IMG/VR virus record: IMGVR_UViG_3300020030_000048
Location: 1 to 6,425 of that record
DNA: 6,425 bases
Source of the DNA: a virus
Direction: 5' to 3' (one strand)
In this document: positions 1 through 6,425 of the stretch, piece after piece
Layout: each line of letters starts with the position of its first letter
Numbering within the stretch: the first letter of the stretch is position 1
Notes under the pieces: model-generated
The model's database searches: none
What the model was told of the DNA's origin: nothing
Seen by the model: the letters and a program-made list of their open reading frames with translations, nothing else
Position numbers and translations under genes: made by a program

Positions 1-121
1 AAATCCAATGGAATGGAAGGATTTAGGTCGCACCACTTTTGGCATCTGAGTATAAAAGTCGGGTAAAGCGACAAAACTATTAACATACGACGCAACATAC
101 GGAGCTGCGAATCCTCGCGAG
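1..121. repeat. Terminal redundancy, copy 1 (identical to 6305-6425); circular-contig overlap
   Basis: A base-by-base comparison of aaatccaatggaatggaagg...ggagctgcgaatcctcgcgag at both ends of the window shows a 121/121 match. It lies inside the VP4 coding sequence. Confidence 0.98.
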
Positions 122-828
122 AGTGACGCATCACAACGTCCGTAAGACCAAGCCTTAGATACATTTTCAAGAACAGTTTGCGAGAATCGTTCGGAATTGG
201 AAAACAATAACAGATGCCAATGCGGGCGGAAAGTCCTGGGGCCGTATTCAGATACAGCGTAGTAACGTAATTTTTCATCAGGGTAATAACTTCTTAAACG
301 TTTAAGGAACAAGTCAAGGTCGCGATTACATATATAAGGTATTCTATTTGAAATCGGGTACTTGATCTTATTAAGAATAGCCAACAAGTCTTTTGGATAC
401 ATAGGGTAGGAGAAGCGAACCTCTGGATCTTTAAAAGTACGTTCAACCGTAGAGCTTTTCAGACGGAGAGAAGCGATACGAGGAACGCTGCGAAAACCAA
501 ACAGATAACGATTATTGTCACAAGCGTCCAGACTATTAATATCGGGAACGCAGGATACATCCGCAATATCGTCTGAACAATTTTCAACAATCTCAACCTG
601 AAGAGTAGGCAAAAAGCGGTCAGCATAAGTGAGAGTGACAAAGTAAACAAAACGGAACTGCATAGAATAAGAAGTGAGCAAGTTGGTTTGAATGCCCGAA
701 CGACGAAGAACACAAGAGGGGCATTGGCCACAAGAAACTAAAACAGGCTCATGGGTATACTTGTTGATGACTGTACGGGGGTTCTGACAACGAGTCACTA
801 ACTTATTCTGCAATTCTTTAGTAATCAT
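1..828 (-). CDS. VP4: Replication initiation protein VP4 (rolling-circle HUH endonuclease), N-terminal 276 codons; the ORF runs off the window start and continues at 6304 on the circle. Full protein is 560 aa.
   Basis: I translated the minus strand myself from the ATG at 828-826: MITKELQNKLVTRCQNPRTVINKYTHEPVLVSCGQCPSCVLRRSGIQTNLLTSYSMQFRFVYFVTLTYADRF...LRYYAVSEYGPRTFRPHWHLLLFSNSERF...SRGFAAPYVASYVNSFVALPDFYTQ-MPKVVRPKSFHSIGF. The last stretch is the start of track ORF 5450..6349. There is no in-frame stop from 828 to 1, and an in-frame TAG lies upstream at 850-852. RCR motif 1 is FVTLTY (625-642). Motif 2 is HWH within RPHWHLLLF (214-222). Motif 3 is YVASYVN with two Tyr in Y-x3-Y spacing (85-99), as in phiX174 gene A. 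An N-terminal Cys cluster C..P...CGQCPSC is typical of gokusho/alpa-type VP4. Confidence 0.95.
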   Translation of the reverse strand, partial: MITKELQNKLVTRCQNPRTVINKYTHEPVLVSCGQCPSCVLRRSGIQTNLLTSYSMQFRFVYFVTLTYADRFLPTLQVEIVENCSDDIADVSCVPDINSLDACDNNRYLFGFRSVPRIASLRLKSSTVERTFKDPEVRFSYPMYPKDLLAILNKIKYPISNRIPYICNRDLDLFLKRLRSYYPDEKLRYYAVSEYGPRTFRPHWHLLLFSNSERFSQTVLENVSKAWSYGRCDASLSRGFAAPYVASYVNSFVALPDFYTQMPKVVRPKSFHSIGF

Positions 829-832
829 ACTA

Positions 833-1138
833 TTATCTATCAGTAAAATCTAATTCCATAAGGCGGGGCTTACGGGAACGAGTAAAAGAAATATGAACAA
901 AAGTGCGATACTTTATAAGTTGGTCAAAGTCGAAACCAGAGTTTTTGATTTTCAGGATAAACTCATCTATAGAAAAATAAAGAGGCTTTAAGTCAACAGC
1001 ATCGCCAGTCAAGTGCTGAGAATTGGAAGAACCTCCACACGCTATATTTTCGGCTTCAGTGCGAAAGGCGGAAGTAACAGTAAACTTAATGTTACTCCGA
1101 AGAAGCCACTCAATAAATTTCATTAACTTGGGGTTCAT
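833..1138 (-). CDS. Zinc D,D-/L,D-peptidase of the M15 (LAS / Peptidase_M15_3-like) family, 101 aa; putative peptidoglycan hydrolase (endolysin)
   Basis: The track ORF contains VTSAFRTEAENIACGGSSNSQHLTGDAVDL, which matches the M15 signature SxxR-x4-N-x3-GG-x3-SxH-x2-GxAxD. The C-terminal FVHISF matches the fvHvD motif. The zinc-ligand triad H42-x6-D49...H82 was verified at codons 1013-1015 (cac), 992-994 (gac) and 893-895 (cat). The stop TAA (833-835) lies 4 nt before the VP4 ATG, so the gene is packed in the same transcription unit. Confidence 0.85.
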   Translation of the reverse strand: MNPKLMKFIEWLLRSNIKFTVTSAFRTEAENIACGGSSNSQHLTGDAVDLKPLYFSIDEFILKIKNSGFDFDQLIKYRTFVHISFTRSRKPRLMELDFTDR

Positions 1139-1141
1139 GGC

Positions 1142-1231
1142 CTACGAAAATATTTGAGCAATAGACGTAAGGAGGCTAACAGCAGCTGCAATAATTGCAG
1201 ACCAAATTTTAGATTTAGTTTCACTTTTCAT
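1142..1231 (-). CDS. 29-aa single-pass membrane peptide (MKSETKSKIWSAIIAAAVSLLTSIAQIFS); SAR-like or holin/antiholin-like candidate
   Basis: The ATG at 1231-1229 overlaps the stop of the upstream 57-aa ORF (ctgATGAAAAGTGA). The peptide has a Lys-rich N-terminus followed by a 20-residue Ala/Ser/Ile/Leu stretch. Third codon positions are T-rich, like the certain genes. It ends in TAG (1142-1144) only 3 nt (GCC) before the peptidase ATG and in the same frame. The track lists a longer 66-aa version (1142..1342) whose N-terminal part is a +1-frame shadow of the 57-aa ORF. Confidence 0.4.
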   Translation of the reverse strand: MKSETKSKIWSAIIAAAVSLLTSIAQIFS

Positions 1232-1394
1232 CAGTAATTGCTTTAAAGGTTGAACACTGAGAGATGATAAGAATACAATCAGGACGAAGGTATGAAGAAA
1301 CGAATTCAGAAACTTCATCAACAGGAATAAGAATAGTCTCATTCTGATTAGGATTGACCTTCGATTGAATAGAACACAAATAATACTTTTCCAT
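1221..1394 (-). CDS. Hypothetical protein, 57 aa (not in the supplied ORF track, presumably below its length cut-off)
   Basis: My own translation from the ATG at 1394-1392: MEKYYLCSIQSKVNPNQNETILIPVDEVSEFVSSYLRPDCILIISQCSTFKAITDEK, with stop TGA at 1221-1223. The composition is balanced and hydrophilic. The overlapping 66-aa track ORF sits in its +1 frame and is Leu/Phe-rich, the pattern seen for shadow ORFs of every certain gene here. The ORF fills an otherwise unexplained gap in a very compact genome. I recognised no motif. Confidence 0.55.
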   Translation of the reverse strand: MEKYYLCSIQSKVNPNQNETILIPVDEVSEFVSSYLRPDCILIISQCSTFKAITDEK

Positions 1395-1412
1395 ATAAAT
1401 ATCTGTTTTAAA

Positions 1413-1610
1413 TTACGAAGGCAAATATACAGGAAAAATACAATAACAGGAGAATGTTAACGCAAAAATAACAATTATAAACATTAAGATAGATGCGTTA
1501 ACAATCACCATGAGAGAAGGGTAAATAAGGAGGTCTGTGAGTTTGCGTATATAAGACAAGAGAAGACTGAAAGCGATGAGGTAAATCGCTTTCCCTTCGG
1601 GCAAACTCAT
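1413..1610 (-). CDS. Small hydrophobic (2-3 TM) protein, 65 aa; possible holin-like membrane protein
   Basis: The track ORF is MSLPEGKAIYLIAFSLLLSYIRKLTDLLIYPSLMVIVNASILMFIIVIFALTFSCYCIFPVYLPS. It is the first ORF after the non-coding region, on the same strand as all genes, with pyrimidine-rich third positions. Caveats: T-rich sequence readily gives spurious hydrophobic ORFs, its 5' end contains a perfect 9-bp hairpin, and there is no charged C-terminal tail typical of holins. Confidence 0.4.
   Translation of the reverse strand: MSLPEGKAIYLIAFSLLLSYIRKLTDLLIYPSLMVIVNASILMFIIVIFALTFSCYCIFPVYLPS
1569..1593. repeat. Perfect 9-bp inverted repeat (hairpin), 7-nt loop
   Basis: gaaagcgat (1569-1577) pairs with atcgctttc (1585-1593), with loop gaggtaa. 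All nine pairs were checked individually. It lies just inside the 5' end of the 65-aa ORF, adjacent to the structured non-coding region. Function is unknown. Confidence 0.6.
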
Positions 1611-1864
1611 GTAGGCTTCGCCAAATATCCAGAGACCTTAAGGTATTCTGATTTTTATGCTCGCTGTGCTCGCGCGTTCTTCACTGCGTTCATCACTTAG
1701 GCGGTTCTTCTTCCTTCGGACTTGAACCGTTTTAAGTAAATCGGCCAATTGGGGTCGCAAGCGACAAGGTGTTTAGGGGAGCAGTTACTTTTAAAAAGGA
1801 GAGGGAAGGAGAGCTGCTATTCCGTTCGTTAAGGAAGGGAAGATGAACCCTATGCTGCGCATCA

Positions 1865-1889
1865 CATTTCGGTCATACTTCCCGAAATG
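1865..1889. repeat. 8-bp perfect inverted repeat (hairpin), 9-nt loop
   Basis: catttcgg (1865-1872) pairs with ccgaaatg (1882-1889), with loop tcatacttc. It is immediately preceded by the 9-mer GCGCATCAC (1857-1865). Confidence 0.6.
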
Positions 1890-1946
1890 CGGGAGGTGTA
1901 TAACCACGCTTCGCGCGGTTGCCAGAAGTTACTCCAAGCAACAAAG

Positions 1947-1972
1947 CCCGACGCGCATCACTGCGAGTCGGG
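1947..1972 (-). terminator. Candidate intrinsic terminator / stable hairpin 26 nt downstream of the VP2 stop
   Basis: Plus strand cccgacgcgca-tcac-tgcgagtcggg gives 10 Watson-Crick pairs plus one G.A mismatch (1953/1966) and a 4-nt loop. On the coding strand it is followed by CTTTGTTGCTT (T-rich but interrupted). VP2 is the last gene of the unidirectional gene block. It could equally be an origin hairpin. Confidence 0.4.
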
Positions 1973-1997
1973 TAAAGAAAACAAACAACAAAATTAT

Positions 1998-3059
1998 CTA
2001 CCAGGGCAGAAAGTTTCCTATAGTATTACCGATAGAAGTACCATAATGAACGGCCTTATCAGCATCATAATACTTATATTTCTTGCCTTCATTACGAGAG
2101 CGATACCAATCCTCAATACTACGAGAACGAGCACGTTCACGATTATACTTAGAAGCTTCAAGTTCGAATTCTGCATTAGAGTGATTTGAAGCGTTAGAAG
2201 CACGAATCAAAGAATCGGCAGTAGCTTCAGCAACCTTATTGCTGATTTTCTGACCTTTGGCACGGGCATAAGTCAATACCTCATCAGCGAGAACCTTCTT
2301 GGCCTGGTTATAATTCAGATGTCCATGAGACATCTGGTTATAATACTCAGAAGCCTTGACGTTCAGATCAGCCTGCTGCTGCTGGTCAAGATACCTGTTA
2401 AGAACAGTCTTAGCTTCAGCGTCAAGCAACTGAGAAGTACCTTGGGCCTGCAAAAGACGTCCGGCAAAAGCCATATTATCAAGTTCCTGCATTTCCTTAG
2501 AATATCCAAGCTGGGCACGAGCCAAACCAGTAGCTTTCAGATACTCACGAGTCTCTTTCGTCATCTTAGACCAATCGACATTGGAAAGAGCCTGCATAGC
2601 CTGGGCATCCGCAAGATTCTTCTGGCCTTGCAACTGAGATACCTGAGCTTGCTGAACCTGAGACTGAAAAACAGAGCCTATAGACTGAGCAATACCAGAA
2701 TAATCAGCCTGAAAAGGTTGCATCTGAGCATTGCCAGAAGATGAAGCAGTAGCACCGGCACCAACAGAACCAGCAGCACCAGCAGAACCACCGTTCATCA
2801 TCAGATAAGGATTTAAGCCAGCTTCTTCGAGACGTTGGCGTTGGGCAGAAGCAGTGTTATAAGCATTTTCCTTATTCCACATATTTTCCTGCCAGTGACG
2901 CTGCTGCATAGACATACGTTCGTTGAACTGGTTATTCATCTGATTTATCTTATAATTCATTTGGTTAGTTTCACGAACGGACTGAGCATTCTGAGCATTC
3001 TGCATCGCAGAAGAACCAGCACCGAACAATCCACCAACCAAAGATCCTAGAAGACCCAT
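1998..3059 (-). CDS. VP2: Minor capsid / DNA pilot protein VP2, 353 aa
   Basis: The track ORF has a Gly-rich hydrophobic N-terminus MGLLGSLVGGLFGAGSSAMQNAQ. This is followed by NYKINQMNNQFNERMSMQQRHWQENMWNKENAYNTASAQRQRLEEAGLNPYLMM, a Gly/Ala/Ser tract and a long Gln/Ala-rich helical region, which is the characteristic architecture of gokusho/alpa-type VP2. Its start overlaps the upstream stop as TAATG (3057-3061), implying translational coupling. The stop is TAG at 1998-2000. Confidence 0.9.
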   Translation of the reverse strand: MGLLGSLVGGLFGAGSSAMQNAQNAQSVRETNQMNYKINQMNNQFNERMSMQQRHWQENMWNKENAYNTASAQRQRLEEAGLNPYLMMNGGSAGAAGSVGAGATASSSGNAQMQPFQADYSGIAQSIGSVFQSQVQQAQVSQLQGQKNLADAQAMQALSNVDWSKMTKETREYLKATGLARAQLGYSKEMQELDNMAFAGRLLQAQGTSQLLDAEAKTVLNRYLDQQQQADLNVKASEYYNQMSHGHLNYNQAKKVLADEVLTYARAKGQKISNKVAEATADSLIRASNASNHSNAEFELEASKYNRERARSRSIEDWYRSRNEGKKYKYYDADKAVHYGTSIGNTIGNFLPW

Positions 3060-3538
3060 TATTCAGAAGCAGCGGAAGAATCGGCAGCAGCAACCTTTTC
3101 CGCTTCTTGTTTAGCGTTTTCGGCTTCAATTAAAGATTGGGCCTCATGTTCAAGAGCTTCAGCATGAGCAGCAAGCTCTTTAGACCAAGCAATAATCTCA
3201 GACGGTGACTGAACGTGTCGAGATCGAACTGTAGACAAAAGATCATCATCAGACATGGTATCCATAATCTGTTGTATCTGAGAAGCAGAATTACGGCTCT
3301 GACCGAACTTGGAAGCAATAGCCAAACCAGCACGAGAGGCCAAGTCTTTAGTATGAAGAATCAAACGAACATCAGACGTATAACGAACAGGACGATCTTC
3401 ATTCGTTTCATCAATTTCAACACGAAGTTCTTCGGTAGAATCAAACTCGGGAGCGACAGCAAAAACATCCGGCTCAACATTAGGAACAAGTTCAGAACAT
3501 TGGCCCAAACTTTCCAAAGAATTAAACTTTCCTATCAT
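3059..3538 (-). CDS. Acidic 159-aa protein, putative internal scaffolding protein (VP3-like)
   Basis: The track ORF is strongly acidic (runs of D/E, e.g. EELRVEIDETNED and a C-terminal EALEHEAQSLIEAENAKQEAEK helix). It sits between VP1 and VP2 and is coupled to VP2 by a TAATG overlap. The size, charge and SRHVQSPSE-type segment resemble microvirus VP3 scaffolds as I remember them. Coding status is solid, but the functional label is an inference. Confidence 0.7.
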   Translation of the reverse strand: MIGKFNSLESLGQCSELVPNVEPDVFAVAPEFDSTEELRVEIDETNEDRPVRYTSDVRLILHTKDLASRAGLAIASKFGQSRNSASQIQQIMDTMSDDDLLSTVRSRHVQSPSEIIAWSKELAAHAEALEHEAQSLIEAENAKQEAEKVAAADSSAASE

Positions 3539-3566: not shown

Positions 3567-5426
3567 TTAGTAAGGAACACCATCACGGGATAAGTTACGG
3601 GCAACATAGCAACCAATATAAGAGTTAACTAACAACTGGTCAGTATCCCAAGTAGAATCAGCATTAACACCGAAGATCGGATCAAGAACAGAAGGATTGA
3701 CCTTGAAGAACTTGTAATTCAAAGCAACCTTAGTTGACGAATCGGGAGTAGAACCACCAAAACGAGACCAACCGGAAAGTAAAGACTCAGTAACAGGAGA
3801 AACCCAAGACTTAAGAGTCGTGGTAAACGCACCGTTGATGACATCAAGTTTAGTTTTCCAGTTGAAGTAACGAGGATTATAACCTGCATTGAACAAGTTG
3901 AAAGCAGTAGCTAATGAAGAGTTGAATATCTGGGTCATAGGAAGAACCTCCATACCAATGCTATCAAACTCAGGAATCGGAAGGGACTCAGCATCGGTAA
4001 CAAGCAACTGTCCATCCTGGCCAGTAATGGAGTAATCAAGAAGAGGAACGGCATGATACATACACATAACGACACAATGCTCATCAGTAATATAAGTGAA
4101 AGAACCGTTTCCTGCACCAACACCTTTACCGGCAATAACAGCAGTATCACCTTCAGTAGCAAGGTTATTATTTACAACTTCGCTAATATCAAGATTACGA
4201 GAGATACCACCAATATAAGTACACATATTGGAAAGAGATTGGGGGAGATTAACGCCAAAATGTTTACGAATCTGTTCGCGGTAATCCGAATCACCGGATT
4301 GACTAATCTCTTTCCACCGTTGAAGGGCCTCGGCTTGACGAAGGGCGAGAACAGTAAATTGACTCTGTAAATTGGACAAGTTAACCTGGAGAGTAGAACC
4401 GGAAGGAATGACATTAGACGTAGAAGCAGAGTTTGCTGCGAAAGATATCGGAGTAAGAGGGGCATTGTGAGAAGTCGTAGTAATAACCTCAGAAGAAGCA
4501 TTACTTTTTGGATCTTTCAATACTACAGAATTAGGAATAGGACCATTAGTATTTGAAATATCAATCACAGCAACGTCACCGAACTGAGAATTCGGAAGAA
4601 CACCCATCAACATATCCTTGTTCCAGTTACAATATCTGAGGTCAAACATCGTATCAGAGTCCCAATAAGCAGAATTCTTAGGGGGCAATGAAGAAACAAG
4701 ACCAGAAGTAAGGCCAGAATAATAATCCACATTATAAGAAGACGGATTCGAATATTCCCACTGAGACCAACGGAAAAAATCCTGATAAATCTTCTGATAA
4801 GCCAAAAGAGGGAAAAGGTTCACATAATTATTCTGAATATACTGTTGAGAATAAGAAGCAGCATCATTAGTATTCACTAAAGAAGTAGACCACCAACGAT
4901 TATCAGCAGAGGGTATAGTACGAACGAAATTCCCATAACCAAGATAGCTTAATAACTTAAAGGACAAATCAGCACGAGAAAAACCAAACATATTCAGCTT
5001 TCCTTCAGAAAAGCCAGGATTATTACTACCACCATTAAGGTATTGAACGAAAGAATATATAAGGTTTAGAGGAAGAGACGGTAAGTAAGTTCCGAGAGAC
5101 AAATTCTGCGTCAAAGAAAGTGCTTGAATCTGATTAATATCCTGTATCTGTGTCAACACAGAAGGAGCAGACTTCCAGAGAAGACGCAACGGCACAGCAT
5201 AGAAATCAAAATATTCACGCAGACGAGTATAGGCAGAGGTCTCAACAGGCTGAGTGCGGGTAAAGTACTCAACGTCAAACTTATACTTGTCACCAGGCAT
5301 AGATATATCCCAGTAGACAGGGAGAAGCTCACCAACTTTTGCGGTAAACGCATTTTTACGTCCAATATCAAAGCCAGAACGGTGAGGACGGTTCTGGAGA
5401 TTGGACATTCCAGTGTAAGAAGCCAT
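3567..5426 (-). CDS. VP1: Major capsid protein VP1 (F-like jelly-roll capsid protein), 619 aa
   Basis: The track ORF carries conserved microvirus capsid blocks: N-terminal RSGFDIGRKNAFTAKVGELLPVYWDISMPGDKY, YFDFYAVPLRLLW, LALRQAEALQRWKEISQSGDSDYREQIRKHFGV, MCTYIGG and GYNPRYFNWK. It is the longest ORF in the genome. The stop is TAA at 3567-3569. Confidence 0.97.
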   Translation of the reverse strand: MASYTGMSNLQNRPHRSGFDIGRKNAFTAKVGELLPVYWDISMPGDKYKFDVEYFTRTQPVETSAYTRLREYFDFYAVPLRLLWKSAPSVLTQIQDINQIQALSLTQNLSLGTYLPSLPLNLIYSFVQYLNGGSNNPGFSEGKLNMFGFSRADLSFKLLSYLGYGNFVRTIPSADNRWWSTSLVNTNDAASYSQQYIQNNYVNLFPLLAYQKIYQDFFRWSQWEYSNPSSYNVDYYSGLTSGLVSSLPPKNSAYWDSDTMFDLRYCNWNKDMLMGVLPNSQFGDVAVIDISNTNGPIPNSVVLKDPKSNASSEVITTTSHNAPLTPISFAANSASTSNVIPSGSTLQVNLSNLQSQFTVLALRQAEALQRWKEISQSGDSDYREQIRKHFGVNLPQSLSNMCTYIGGISRNLDISEVVNNNLATEGDTAVIAGKGVGAGNGSFTYITDEHCVVMCMYHAVPLLDYSITGQDGQLLVTDAESLPIPEFDSIGMEVLPMTQIFNSSLATAFNLFNAGYNPRYFNWKTKLDVINGAFTTTLKSWVSPVTESLLSGWSRFGGSTPDSSTKVALNYKFFKVNPSVLDPIFGVNADSTWDTDQLLVNSYIGCYVARNLSRDGVPY

Positions 5427-5449: not shown

Positions 5450-6425
5450 TTAATCAGAATAGGAAAATATACCAGATAAATCATTGAGATTCTTGTGTTT
5501 AACCTTATCTCTACACTTCATCAGTGCAGCAGCAGCCAAACGACGAACAAGAGGCAATTGTTTATAAGGTAATTCCTTGTCAAAGACAGTTTTATCATAA
5601 CGGAAAGAATAGTTACGAAGTTCCATATCAAGCAAATCCTTATCATCAGAATCTTCCAAGGTTTGATAAAAATCAACAAGACGGGCATAATCGTAACGAA
5701 GCCAAAAATCAACTATTTTTTCGGAGAGAATTCGTAAAGATCTCTCTCGGCAGCCGGCATATCCTCCAAGTTCGGAGAGGGGGACACCATCTGACTCGTA
5801 TGTTCGAAAAGTTTTTGCAACTCCGAGAAAAAAGCGGTATAATCGGGACGTGCGATGAACAGGTGATAGATCAACACCATCAAACAGACGACATTCAGAC
5901 GTAATAAGAATATCAGCATGCGGTAGATTTTCCTTAGGTGAAAGAACATTTCTTTCGTCATTTCGTTTTCCATAATTATCCAAGTAACTTAAATATTGTT
6001 TACAAAAAGATAGTATACTTTGTTTGGAAGATTTATTCCAAGGATCAAGATCTAAATCACCGCATCCGCTACGAATGACTCGTTCGGGCGCTGTGAACGC
6101 AGCAGATAATAACTGGTAAACGTTCGATGAAGATTTACGAATAGCGTCCGAAAATCGGGGGAATAATCGAAGGAGATGCGGCCATGAAGGTTTAATTGTG
6201 CGAAAAAATCCATCGCGCTCAACGCGGACTCCATTAAGGCACTTATCGGCAACTTCATCAATTTCGGCAATTTGTACCGTTCGAGGAAAGTAATATGATT
6301 CAGTAAATCCAATGGAATGGAAGGATTTAGGTCGCACCACTTTTGGCATCTGAGTATAAAAGTCGGGTAAAGCGACAAAACTATTAACATACGACGCAAC
6401 ATACGGAGCTGCGAATCCTCGCGAG
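5450..6425 (-). CDS. VP4: Replication initiation protein VP4, C-terminal part (codons continuing from window position 1); 6305-6425 re-reads the same codons as 1-121
   Basis: The track ORF 5450..6349 (MPKVVRPKSFHSIGF...) is in frame with, and contiguous to, the 828->1 reading frame: 6349 corresponds to position 45 in copy 1, and 828-45 = 783 = 3 x 261. The frame stays open from 6349 up to the window end and contains the YVASYVN motif again at 6389-6403. The stop is TAA at 5450-5452. The roughly 290 aa after the catalytic Tyr motif have no motif I recognise. Confidence 0.93.
   Translation of the reverse strand, partial: SRGFAAPYVASYVNSFVALPDFYTQMPKVVRPKSFHSIGFTESYYFPRTVQIAEIDEVADKCLNGVRVERDGFFRTIKPSWPHLLRLFPRFSDAIRKSSSNVYQLLSAAFTAPERVIRSGCGDLDLDPWNKSSKQSILSFCKQYLSYLDNYGKRNDERNVLSPKENLPHADILITSECRLFDGVDLSPVHRTSRLYRFFLGVAKTFRTYESDGVPLSELGGYAGCRERSLRILSEKIVDFWLRYDYARLVDFYQTLEDSDDKDLLDMELRNYSFRYDKTVFDKELPYKQLPLVRRLAAAALMKCRDKVKHKNLNDLSGIFSYSD
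6305..6425. repeat. Terminal redundancy, copy 2 (identical to 1-121)
   Basis: See copy 1. The 121/121 identity was read directly from the sequence. Confidence 0.98.

What the first reader, a model, noticed from the sequence alone, without database searches (positions are those of the whole stretch)
833..1610. Accessory module of four small ORFs looks like a holin/endolysin-type lysis cassette in a 6.3-kb ssDNA phage
Four short, tightly coupled, co-oriented ORFs lie between the non-coding region and VP4: a 65-aa multi-TM protein, a 57-aa soluble protein, a 29-aa single-TM peptide and the M15 peptidase. The gaps and overlaps are an 18-nt gap, an 11-nt overlap (ATGAAAAGTGA), a 3-nt gap, and then 4 nt to VP4. 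Small membrane proteins immediately upstream of a muralytic enzyme are the classic layout of tailed dsDNA phage lysis cassettes (holin / antiholin / endolysin). It is not what the well-studied Microviridae use, which is a single overprinted amurin. If functional, this is a compact multi-component lysis system in a microvirus. It occupies the position where microvirus genomes are most variable.
Basis: inference. Interest (0 to 1): 0.7.

Follow-up and report, generated by a model that had tools for sequence, protein, structure and literature searches.

The report
Tiny membrane peptide beside microvirus endolysin
In this 6.3-kb single-stranded DNA phage of Bacteroides, a strongly conserved 29-residue membrane peptide sits directly upstream of a borrowed cell-wall peptidase and probably forms a two-part host-lysis module with it, but the "65-aa membrane protein" of the original finding is non-coding control DNA and the 57-aa protein is a core phage gene of unknown function.

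Summary
Only three are genes.

- **orf65 (1413-1610):** not supported as a gene. It shows no codon-position signature, its tail cannot be aligned, and it is stopped at codon 10 in a relative. It overlies a stem-loop kept by compensatory changes, a phiX174-origin-like motif and the prophage attachment site.
- **orf57:** a real gene (dN/dS 0.15). It belongs to a family of 3,892 protein clusters with no known function or fold match.
- **orf29:** a real gene (dN/dS 0.10) and the most conserved protein of the block, 94.5% mean identity against 75% for the peptidase across 68 genomes.
- **Peptidase:** an M15_3 enzyme, the family annotated as endolysin in tailed phages such as Bacteroides phage B40-8. 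It was already reported in microviruses in 2012.

New here: peptides of the same design, 27-30 aa, accompany M15 peptidases in several microvirus lineages in three different gene orders. The exceptions count against a strict pairing. Nine complete genomes keep the peptide without any peptidase, and some genomes have the peptidase without the peptide.

Best reading: a two-component lysis module, with the peptide as the older and probably primary effector. It is not a four-gene holin/antiholin/endolysin cassette. No function has been tested.

The parts
1413..1610 (-). 'orf65': an open frame over non-coding control DNA, not supported as a gene
   Evidence: No codon-position signature in the conserved first 26 codons. 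The C-terminal part cannot be aligned between genomes of about 82% identity. The frame stops at codon 10 in mar62 and runs 33-38 codons in other relatives. In integrated relatives the prophage junction falls inside the stretch that aligns with it.
1569..1593 (-). Conserved stem-loop GAAAGCGAT-TTACCTC-ATCGCTTTC, a structural element of the single-stranded DNA or its transcript. A role at the origin or as a terminator is inferred.
   Evidence: Compensatory changes keep the stem: GAAAGCTAT/ATAGCTTTC in L002, GAACAGCT/AGCTGTTC in L005, GATTGCTT/AAGCAATC in L006. The surrounding 106 nt (1520-1625) fold as DNA with z = -4.2. The scan also flags it as terminator-like.
1532..1560 (-). Conserved motif CTTGTCTTATATACGCAAACTCACAGACC, possibly the origin of viral-strand synthesis
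   Evidence: 0-1 substitutions in four close relatives, 2 in mar62 and 4 in mar63. It resembles by eye the phiX174 origin CAACTTGATATTAATAACACTATAGACC, annotated as rep_origin at 4306. The resemblance was not tested statistically.
1441..1460 (-). Counterpart of the prophage attachment core (dif-like), diverged in this genome
   Evidence: Integrated relatives in Bacteroides are flanked by ATATTAAACAT(AA/TC)TGCTGATATT, and the empty site in B. rodentium carries the same core. The window reads TTAACATTCTCCTGTTATTG at the aligned place.
1422..1429 (-). TATATTTG, possible Bacteroides-type -7 promoter box 28 nt upstream of orf57 (inference only)
   Evidence: TATATTTG in four of the five close genomes and TATGTTTG in L004. 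The match to the Bacteroides -7 consensus TAnnTTTG is from my own knowledge and was not tested. The sigma-70 scan is uninformative.
1221..1394 (-). orf57: soluble 57-aa core protein with a beta-beta-alpha-beta fold, function unknown
   Evidence: dN/dS 0.15, variable columns 15/6/33 by codon position. The family has 3,892 clusters, all unnamed. The AF2 model has pLDDT 83. Fold searches gave no informative match. It is kept, together with the peptide, in peptidase-less genomes.
1142..1231 (-). orf29: 29-aa single-pass membrane peptide, the candidate membrane component of lysis
   Evidence: dN/dS 0.10. Across 68 genomes, variable columns are 11/5/24 by codon position, with 214 synonymous against 65 non-synonymous variant counts and mean identity 94.5%. 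The N-terminus has net charge +2, followed by 20 hydrophobic residues whose small and polar residues cluster on one helix face (p=0.012). A design rule written after seeing the peptides finds it as the only ORF of this kind in the genome.
833..1138 (-). Minimal (101-aa) M15_3 zinc peptidase, endolysin-type, with no signal or membrane segment
   Evidence: Pfam PF08291 E=1.9e-12. PHROG 894 'endolysin' 2e-17. Invariant R26, S40, H42, G45, A47, D49, D72 and H82 across 11 sequences. dN/dS 0.25. Maximum hydropathy 0.81.
1..828 (-). 5' part of VP4 (replication initiator, 560 aa, continuing at 6304..5450); downstream neighbour, given as context
   Evidence: Reconstructed on the circular genome. PHROG 942 'replication initiation protein' 9.6e-38.

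Best explanation
The region holds two different things.

1. **Positions 1413-1610 are non-coding control DNA.** They contain a conserved stem-loop, an origin-like motif, the attachment site used by integrated relatives, and probably the promoter of the downstream genes. They happen to be open in one frame.

2. **Positions 833-1394 are three tightly packed genes.** orf57 is a core protein of unknown role. orf29 and the M15_3 peptidase form a two-component lysis module.

Proposed mechanism (inferred, not shown):
- The peptidase is made in the cytoplasm without any export signal.
- The 29-aa peptide inserts with its N-terminus inside. It then oligomerises through its stripe of small and polar residues and breaches or depolarises the inner membrane late in infection.
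- That gives the peptidase access to the peptide cross-links of Bacteroides peptidoglycan.
- The peptide is the older, lineage-wide gene and probably the primary lysis effector. The peptidase is a horizontally acquired addition placed next to it.
For: **Shown**
- The peptide gene is under strong purifying selection and is more conserved than the peptidase.
- In IMG/VR, 63 of 63 contigs with the window-type peptide carry the peptidase. So do 102 of 113 analysed contigs with the second peptide type.
- Peptides of the same design lie next to M15 peptidases in other microvirus lineages, in different gene orders. In the pig-faeces group L252-L256 the peptide is downstream and overlaps the peptidase 3' end, with 7 synonymous against 0 non-synonymous changes between L252 and L255. 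In L260 and L261 its ATG overlaps the peptidase stop codon. In L257 and L258 it lies just before VP4.
- The peptidase lacks any hydrophobic segment and keeps the zinc-ligand pattern H-x6-D...H.
- The same family is annotated as endolysin in phages of Bacteroides, Burkholderia, Proteus, Nonlabens and Vibrio. In B40-8 the endolysin sits between a 131-aa multi-TM protein and a 201-aa protein with an N-terminal TM segment.
- The host lineage is Bacteroides.
- The design rule finds exactly one such ORF on the coding strand of 12 of 13 genomes and one in total on all 13 reverse strands.

**Inferred**
- Membrane topology, oligomerisation and timing.
Against: - No experiment exists. The link between peptide and peptidase is association only.
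- Nine complete genomes have the peptide and the orf57 homologue but no M15 peptidase anywhere. The peptide therefore has a function independent of the peptidase.
- mar63 has the peptidase but no peptide. The sequenced stretches around the peptidase in L259, L262 and L263 also show none. One contig, L046, has a broken peptide gene beside an intact peptidase.
- The peptide matches no holin family in Pfam or PHROGs and lacks the charged C-terminal tail typical of holins.
- Whether a 29-aa peptide can make lesions large enough for a folded 11.7-kDa enzyme is unknown.
- Sequence homology between the window-type peptide and those of other lineages cannot be demonstrated. The cross-lineage pattern may be convergence or partly selective viewing.
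- In a 6-kb genome adjacency is weak evidence, because there are few permissive insertion sites.
Confidence: 0.5

Rival explanations
1. The peptide is a single-gene lysis protein ('protein antibiotic'), like phiX174 E or the 37-aa LysM of phage M. It binds and blocks a membrane enzyme of peptidoglycan precursor supply, such as MraY or MurJ. The peptidase only helps afterwards, by dismantling the sacculus once the envelope has failed.
For: - Nine complete genomes carry the peptide with no muralytic enzyme at all, yet must still lyse.
- The extreme conservation of the transmembrane helix would suit a specific protein-protein interface.
- Known single-gene lysis proteins can be very small: LysM has 37 residues (abstract of PMC12506998, listed).
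Against: - No similarity to the E protein or any other family.
- It has its own genomic slot and is not overprinted on another gene.
- The repeated, order-independent pairing with an endolysin-type enzyme is not expected for a self-sufficient lysis protein.
- A stripe of small residues suggests self-association as much as target binding.
Confidence: 0.2
2. The peptide, with orf57, has a non-lysis role, for example anchoring replication or assembly at the membrane, or superinfection exclusion. It sits next to the peptidase only because the short stretch before VP4 is the one place where microvirus genomes tolerate insertions. The peptidase acts on its own, or as a virion or entry enzyme.
For: - orf57 and the peptide are a lineage-core pair that exists without the peptidase.
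- orf57 overlaps the peptide start by 11 nt.
- In several gene orders the peptide lies directly upstream of VP4.
- Some genomes have the peptidase without the peptide.
Against: - In L260 and L261 the peptide follows the peptidase, with VP4 upstream of the peptidase rather than next to the peptide.
- The peptidase has no export signal, so it needs some breach of the membrane.
- No other gene for a membrane protein was found among the genome's non-overlapping genes, and a lytic release function must be encoded somewhere.
Confidence: 0.2
3. One reading: a four-gene cassette in which the 65-aa multi-TM protein is a holin, the 29-aa peptide or the 57-aa protein is an antiholin or regulator, and the peptidase is the endolysin.
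For: The ORFs are co-oriented and tightly spaced. orf65 is very hydrophobic.
Against: - orf65 shows no coding signature. Only a stretch of DNA with a covarying hairpin is conserved. The frame is broken or shortened in relatives, and integration splits the aligned stretch.
- orf57 is retained where the peptidase is absent.
Confidence: 0.03

Closest known systems
M15_3 peptidase genes of gut Alpavirinae and Gokushovirinae (Roux et al. 2012, PMC3394797; Kirchberger et al. 2022, PMC9239249)
   Same: The same enzyme family, in the same kind of genome, already proposed to act as an endolysin and to have been acquired horizontally. Roux et al. note that 5 of 11 such genes have an unknown neighbouring ORF.
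   Different: Neither paper mentions a membrane partner in the passages I read. The 27-30-aa peptide gene is unannotated in nearly all the GenBank records examined. Only PQ006241 lists it, as 'hypothetical protein'.
Canonical holin-endolysin(-spanin) cassettes of tailed phages, such as Bacteroides phage B40-8
   Same: A cytoplasmic muralytic enzyme of the same M15 family is encoded next to a membrane protein.
   Different: The B40-8 membrane neighbour is a 131-aa multi-TM protein, and a spanin-like gene follows. Here the membrane protein is a 29-aa single helix with no charged C-terminal tail, no spanin candidate is present, and the peptide also occurs without the enzyme.
Single-gene lysis proteins: phiX174 E (91 aa, blocks MraY) and LysM of phage M (37 aa, blocks MurJ)
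   Same: A very small single-pass membrane protein in a tiny phage genome. The peptidase-less relatives would need such a mechanism.
   Different: No sequence similarity. It is not overprinted. In most genomes it is paired with a peptidoglycan hydrolase-type enzyme.
Pfam DUF6486 (PF20096, 31-position family of unknown function)
   Same: The peptides next to the peptidases of L260 and L261 score above the family's gathering threshold (22.9 and 27.3 bits against 22.7). L258 scores just below it, at 18.6 bits.
   Different: The window's peptide, the second type and the L252 type give no match. The family has no described function, and no paper in the library mentions it.
Small pore-forming or depolarising membrane peptides, such as the 29-aa type I toxin TisB and pinholins with glycine-zipper helices (from my own knowledge)
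   Same: Similar size, a single helix, and a face of small and polar residues suited to helix packing.
   Different: Only a resemblance of design. No homology or activity was tested.

Membership tests
Peptidase M15_3 (PF08291; LAS-type zinc peptidases) | Profile match above the curated threshold | tested here: met
   47.7 bits against a gathering score of 23.2, E=1.9e-12.
Peptidase M15_3 (PF08291; LAS-type zinc peptidases) | Zinc-ligand pattern H-x6-D ... H within the SxHxxGxAxD motif | tested here: met
   S40, H42, G45, A47, D49 and H82 are invariant across 11 diverse microviral sequences. The motif definition is from my own knowledge. The T5 L-Ala-D-Glu peptidase 2mxz aligns over this motif.
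Peptidase M15_3 (PF08291; LAS-type zinc peptidases) | Complete domain | tested here: inconclusive
   Only profile positions 40-108 of 108 are matched. The protein has 15 residues before the match, so it is an N-terminally minimal form. The B40-8 and L252-type enzymes are about 130 aa. The single-sequence AF2 model was too poor to judge (pLDDT 55).
Phage endolysin (functional class) | Degrades host peptidoglycan at the end of infection | not testable with these tools
   Only annotation transfer is available: PHROG 894 'endolysin' and homologues annotated as endolysin in tailed phages.
Holin | Small phage membrane protein with at least one transmembrane segment, encoded next to the endolysin | tested here: met
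   One hydrophobic segment of 20 residues. A 3-nt gap separates it from the peptidase start. The adjacency recurs in other lineages.
Holin | Hydrophilic, charged C-terminal domain | tested here: not met
   The peptide ends ...IAQIFS with no charged residue after position 8. The charged segment is N-terminal. The defining feature is from my own knowledge.
Holin | Similarity to a described holin family | tested here: not met
   No match in Pfam, PHROGs or NCBIfam.
Holin | Timed, lethal permeabilisation of the cytoplasmic membrane that releases the endolysin | not testable with these tools
   Needs expression experiments.
Single-gene lysis protein / amurin (phiX174 E type) | Sufficient for lysis without a phage muralytic enzyme | not testable with these tools
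   Nine peptidase-less genomes that keep the peptide are compatible with this, but nothing has been tested.
Single-gene lysis protein / amurin (phiX174 E type) | Homology to protein E, or overprinting within another gene | tested here: not met
   No family match. The gene occupies its own slot, with only an 11-nt overlap.
Pfam DUF6486 | Profile match above the gathering score | tested here: not met
   The window peptide gives no match. Only the peptides of L260 and L261 pass the threshold.

The most novel reading that the evidence does not exclude
The 27-30-aa peptides are a previously unrecognised class of ultra-small lysis proteins. They would be either the smallest holins known or a new kind of single-gene lysis protein. 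They would form the ancestral lysis system of the very abundant Bacteroides-infecting gut microviruses, with M15 peptidases repeatedly recruited next to them.
Probability: 0.45. Interest if true: 0.75.

Novelty: new variant of a known kind. Interest (0 to 1): 0.6.

Why it matters
How microviruses outside the phiX174 group lyse their hosts is, to my knowledge, unknown. Roux et al. state that phiX174 is the only microvirus whose lysis mechanism has been worked out. These phages are among the most abundant viruses of the mammalian gut.

A defined candidate makes the question testable with simple expression experiments. It is 29 residues long, nearly invariant, present in many public contigs, and paired with an endolysin-type enzyme.

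- If the peptide is a pore former, it would be among the smallest phage lysis membrane proteins that I know of.
- If it is an inhibitor of cell-wall synthesis, it points to a drug target in Bacteroides.

The work also corrects annotation:
- The peptide gene is missing from most GenBank records examined.
- The peptidase start is placed too far upstream in some records.
- The 'orf65' frame should not be called a gene.

Tried and rejected
- **orf57 as a homologue of gokushovirus VP5 (PF20577 / PHROG 1670).** It looked similar by eye, but hhalign gives probability 0.1-0.2%. There are no PHROG hits. Rejected, with the caveat that the VP5 alignment was shallow.
- **Fold of orf57.** The model is good (pLDDT 83). 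Foldseek finds only unnamed microvirus proteins in BFVD and nothing below E=0.8 in the PDB.
- **Peptidase structure from a single sequence.** pLDDT 55, so it was not used for a fold search.
- **Hydrophobic alternative-frame ORFs inside VP4 (90-97 aa) as an overprinted lysis gene of the phiX174 E kind.** The +1 frame is open at three places along VP4 while the +2 frame almost never is. I attribute this to T-rich third codon positions and judge these ORFs a composition artefact; base composition was not measured directly.
- **The alternative frame over orf29 (GTG ORF 1135-1224).** Its dN/dS is about 0.8-1.0, so it is not the selected frame.
- **Homology of all the mini-peptides.** Leave-one-lineage-out HMMs recover the L252, L258 and L260 types. 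They do not recover the window type or the second type. Common descent is therefore claimed only by synteny for those two.
- **Database search with the peptide.** An exact look-up shows only 'hypothetical protein' names.
- **Relatives of the L252 peptidase in IMG/VR.** None found.
- **Rfam and sigma-70 promoter scans.** Nothing useful.
- **Reference Bacteroides genomes at the integration site.** None of the 80 carries the prophage.
Full report
**What the window is**

The 6,425 bases are a circular 6,304-nt microvirus genome with a 121-nt terminal duplicate. All genes lie on the minus strand:
- major capsid protein, 5426..3567
- scaffold, 3538..3059
- pilot protein, 3059..1998
- a 387-nt non-coding region
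- the four ORFs of the finding
- the 560-aa replication initiator VP4, 828..1 continuing at 6304..5450

**Check of the observation**

The peptidase is a Peptidase_M15_3 domain (E=1.9e-12) and matches the PHROG 'endolysin' family 894 (2e-17).

**Relatives**

- GenBank holds eight genomes about 80-82% identical in nucleotides, from lemur and rodent faeces, and many more distant ones.
- IMG/VR gave 80 further loci through the peptidase.
- Close relatives also occur as prophages. They lie between a TPR gene next to gyrA and a Usp gene, on contigs whose flank is 100% identical to Bacteroides rodentium. The host lineage is therefore Bacteroides.

**orf65 is not supported as a gene**

- Among five genomes in which the neighbouring genes have dS of 0.3-0.9, the first 26 codons of orf65 have pS 0.07 and pN 0.056. 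Variable columns are 4/3/3 by codon position. The stretch is conserved as nucleic acid, not as protein.
- Beyond codon 26 the sequences cannot be aligned. The frame runs 38 codons in three relatives and 64 in one. It runs 33 in mar63 and only 9 in mar62, where a TAA falls in the hairpin loop.
- The conserved DNA is a 9-bp stem-loop (1569-1593). Its stem changes in a compensatory way in three relatives, and the surrounding 106 nt fold well as DNA (z = -4.2).
- It is followed by CTTGTCTTATATACGCAAACTCACAGACC (1532-1560). By eye this resembles the phiX174 origin of viral-strand synthesis.
- The 3' half of the ORF holds the counterpart (1441-1460) of the roughly 24-bp repeat that flanks the integrated relatives. 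The same repeat is present in the empty B. rodentium site. That is the layout expected for host XerC/XerD-mediated integration of microviruses (PMC7062461).
- A possible Bacteroides -7 promoter box lies at 1422-1429. This is inference from my own knowledge of the consensus.
- The hydrophobic look of orf65 is not specific. Out-of-frame ORFs inside VP4 look equally membrane-like. I attribute this to T-rich third codon positions. In the +1 frame these become second positions, which give Phe, Leu, Ile and Val and few stop codons. Base composition was not measured directly.

**orf57 is a real gene of unknown function**

- dN/dS is 0.15, with variation at third codon positions.
- A profile of diverse homologues finds 3,892 clusters at 90% identity. 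All are unnamed and lack a Pfam domain, and nearly all sit on contigs of up to about 6 kb.
- The AlphaFold model is confident (pLDDT 83) and has a beta-beta-alpha-beta fold. It matches only unnamed microvirus proteins, and nothing in the PDB.
- A suspected relation to gokushovirus VP5 was tested and rejected.

**orf29 is the key gene**

- dN/dS is 0.10.
- In 68 genomes the variable columns are 11/5/24 by codon position. There are 214 synonymous against 65 non-synonymous variant counts, and most of the latter are Ser/Asn, Ser/Ala or Ile/Val exchanges.
- 36 of the 68 genomes encode exactly the same peptide. Mean identity is 94.5%, against 75.2% for the peptidase.
- Its anatomy is MKSETKSK (net charge +2) followed by about 20 uncharged residues. 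The small and polar residues cluster on one helix face (permutation p=0.012). By the positive-inside rule the N-terminus stays in the cytoplasm (inference).
- The exact sequence exists in public protein sets only as 'hypothetical protein'. The gene is unannotated in all ten GenBank relatives first examined.

**Distribution of the peptide**

- All 63 IMG/VR contigs with the window-type peptide carry the peptidase.
- A second type (MKSNNIWKIVIGAVSAALGYILNAIGL, 27 aa) occupies the same position in genomes whose peptidase is only about 50% identical, and its stop codon overlaps the peptidase start.
- At least 120 contigs have this second type. Of 113 analysed, 102 have the peptidase directly downstream.
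- Nine complete genomes have the orf57 homologue and the peptide followed directly by VP4, with no M15 peptidase anywhere.
- The reverse case also exists. mar63 has the peptidase but no peptide. One contig has a broken peptide gene. The sequenced stretches around the peptidase in three other peptidase-bearing microviruses show no such peptide.

**Other lineages**

Unrelated microviruses with M15 peptidases also carry a 28-30-aa peptide of the same design, but placed differently:
- L252-L256: downstream, overlapping the peptidase 3' end. Synonymous changes dominate, 7 to 0 and at least 8 to 1.
- L260 and L261: the peptide ATG overlaps the peptidase stop codon.
- L257 and L258: just before VP4.

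Two of these peptides pass the threshold of Pfam DUF6486, a family with no described function.

A design rule written after seeing the peptides finds exactly one such ORF on the coding strand of 12 of 13 genomes. It finds one in total on all 13 reverse strands.

Leave-one-lineage-out profiles link the L252, L258 and L260 types. They do not link the window type or the second type. Common descent of all the peptides is therefore not shown.

**Interpretation**

- The peptidase has no signal or membrane segment and must reach the wall through a breach in the membrane.
- The peptide is the only gene of that design found on the coding strand.
- The same enzyme family serves as endolysin in tailed phages. 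In Bacteroides phage B40-8 it sits between two membrane-protein genes.

The best-supported reading is a two-component lysis module. Because the peptide and orf57 persist without the peptidase, the peptide is the older gene and probably the primary lysis effector. The peptidase would be a later acquisition placed beside it.

Whether the peptide acts as a pore former or as an inhibitor of wall synthesis cannot be decided here. A non-lysis role is not excluded.

**Novelty**

The peptidase and its proposed lytic role in microviruses were published in 2012 and 2022. I found no description of the membrane-peptide partner in the searchable literature. I rate the finding a new variant of a known kind, of moderate to high interest, with all functional claims still untested.

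Noticed in passing
window 1-121 and 6305-6425: Exact 121-nt terminal direct repeat. The window is a circular 6,304-nt genome, and VP4 runs across the junction.
   Followed up: yes
window about 288..1 then 6304..6052, minus strand, +1 frame inside VP4: An alternative-frame ORF is open for at least 70 codons in 52 of 52 related genomes. It is not hydrophobic. It coincides with the VP4 stretch of lowest synonymous codon diversity (codons 181-360: 0.07-0.18, against mostly 0.24-0.41 elsewhere). More distant genomes have a 183-aa ORF at the same relative place. It may be a genuine overprinted gene or a DNA-level constraint.
   Followed up: partly
L264 7560-8010 and 13700-14230; L267 10200-10700: Close relatives are integrated in Bacteroides chromosomes and encode no integrase. 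They are flanked by the repeat ATATTAAACAT(AA/TC)TGCTGATATT, which is also present at the empty site of B. rodentium JCM 16496. The window's copy of this site is diverged, with one deletion and two substitutions, so this genome may not integrate there.
   Followed up: partly
L001 3888-4070, L003 4022-4204, L005 4243-4425, L264 7803-7985: Relatives carry an extra 60-aa ORF (MKRLTPDTRCALIRAYF...) between the attachment site and orf57. The window lacks it. It has no family match.
   Followed up: no
L007 3985-4359 and L008 3998-4372 (Dulem virus 238 and 243): The GenBank peptidase CDS starts 63 nt too far upstream, in a frame that overlaps the unannotated 28-aa peptide gene. The conserved start is MNVSLMSF... 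/ MNVLLMSF....
   Followed up: partly
L046 around 3100-3330; L006 4577-5055: Natural exceptions. One IMG/VR contig has the peptide gene broken by a stop codon and a 10-nt duplication beside an intact peptidase. Microvirus mar63 has the orf57 homologue fused directly to the peptidase start with no peptide gene.
   Followed up: partly
L005 4601-4693 (Microvirus mar62): The peptide there has two in-frame start codons (MTMKAETK...), reminiscent of the dual-start motifs of lambda-type holins. Seen in this one genome only.
   Followed up: no
window 1611-1997: The non-coding region after the pilot gene contains GC-rich inverted repeats. One is CCCGACTCGCAGTGATGCGCGTCGGG, followed by a T-rich run, which looks like a terminator. 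Parts of it are conserved among relatives. Rfam finds nothing.
   Followed up: no
L252 4741-5428 and L253 5040-5753: This is the roughly 700-nt region that Kirchberger et al. 2022 report as recombined between two unrelated microviruses. It is 78% identical over 723 aligned columns. It covers about 300 nt upstream of the peptidase and nearly the whole peptidase gene, and it ends about 25 nt into the downstream peptide ORF.
   Followed up: partly
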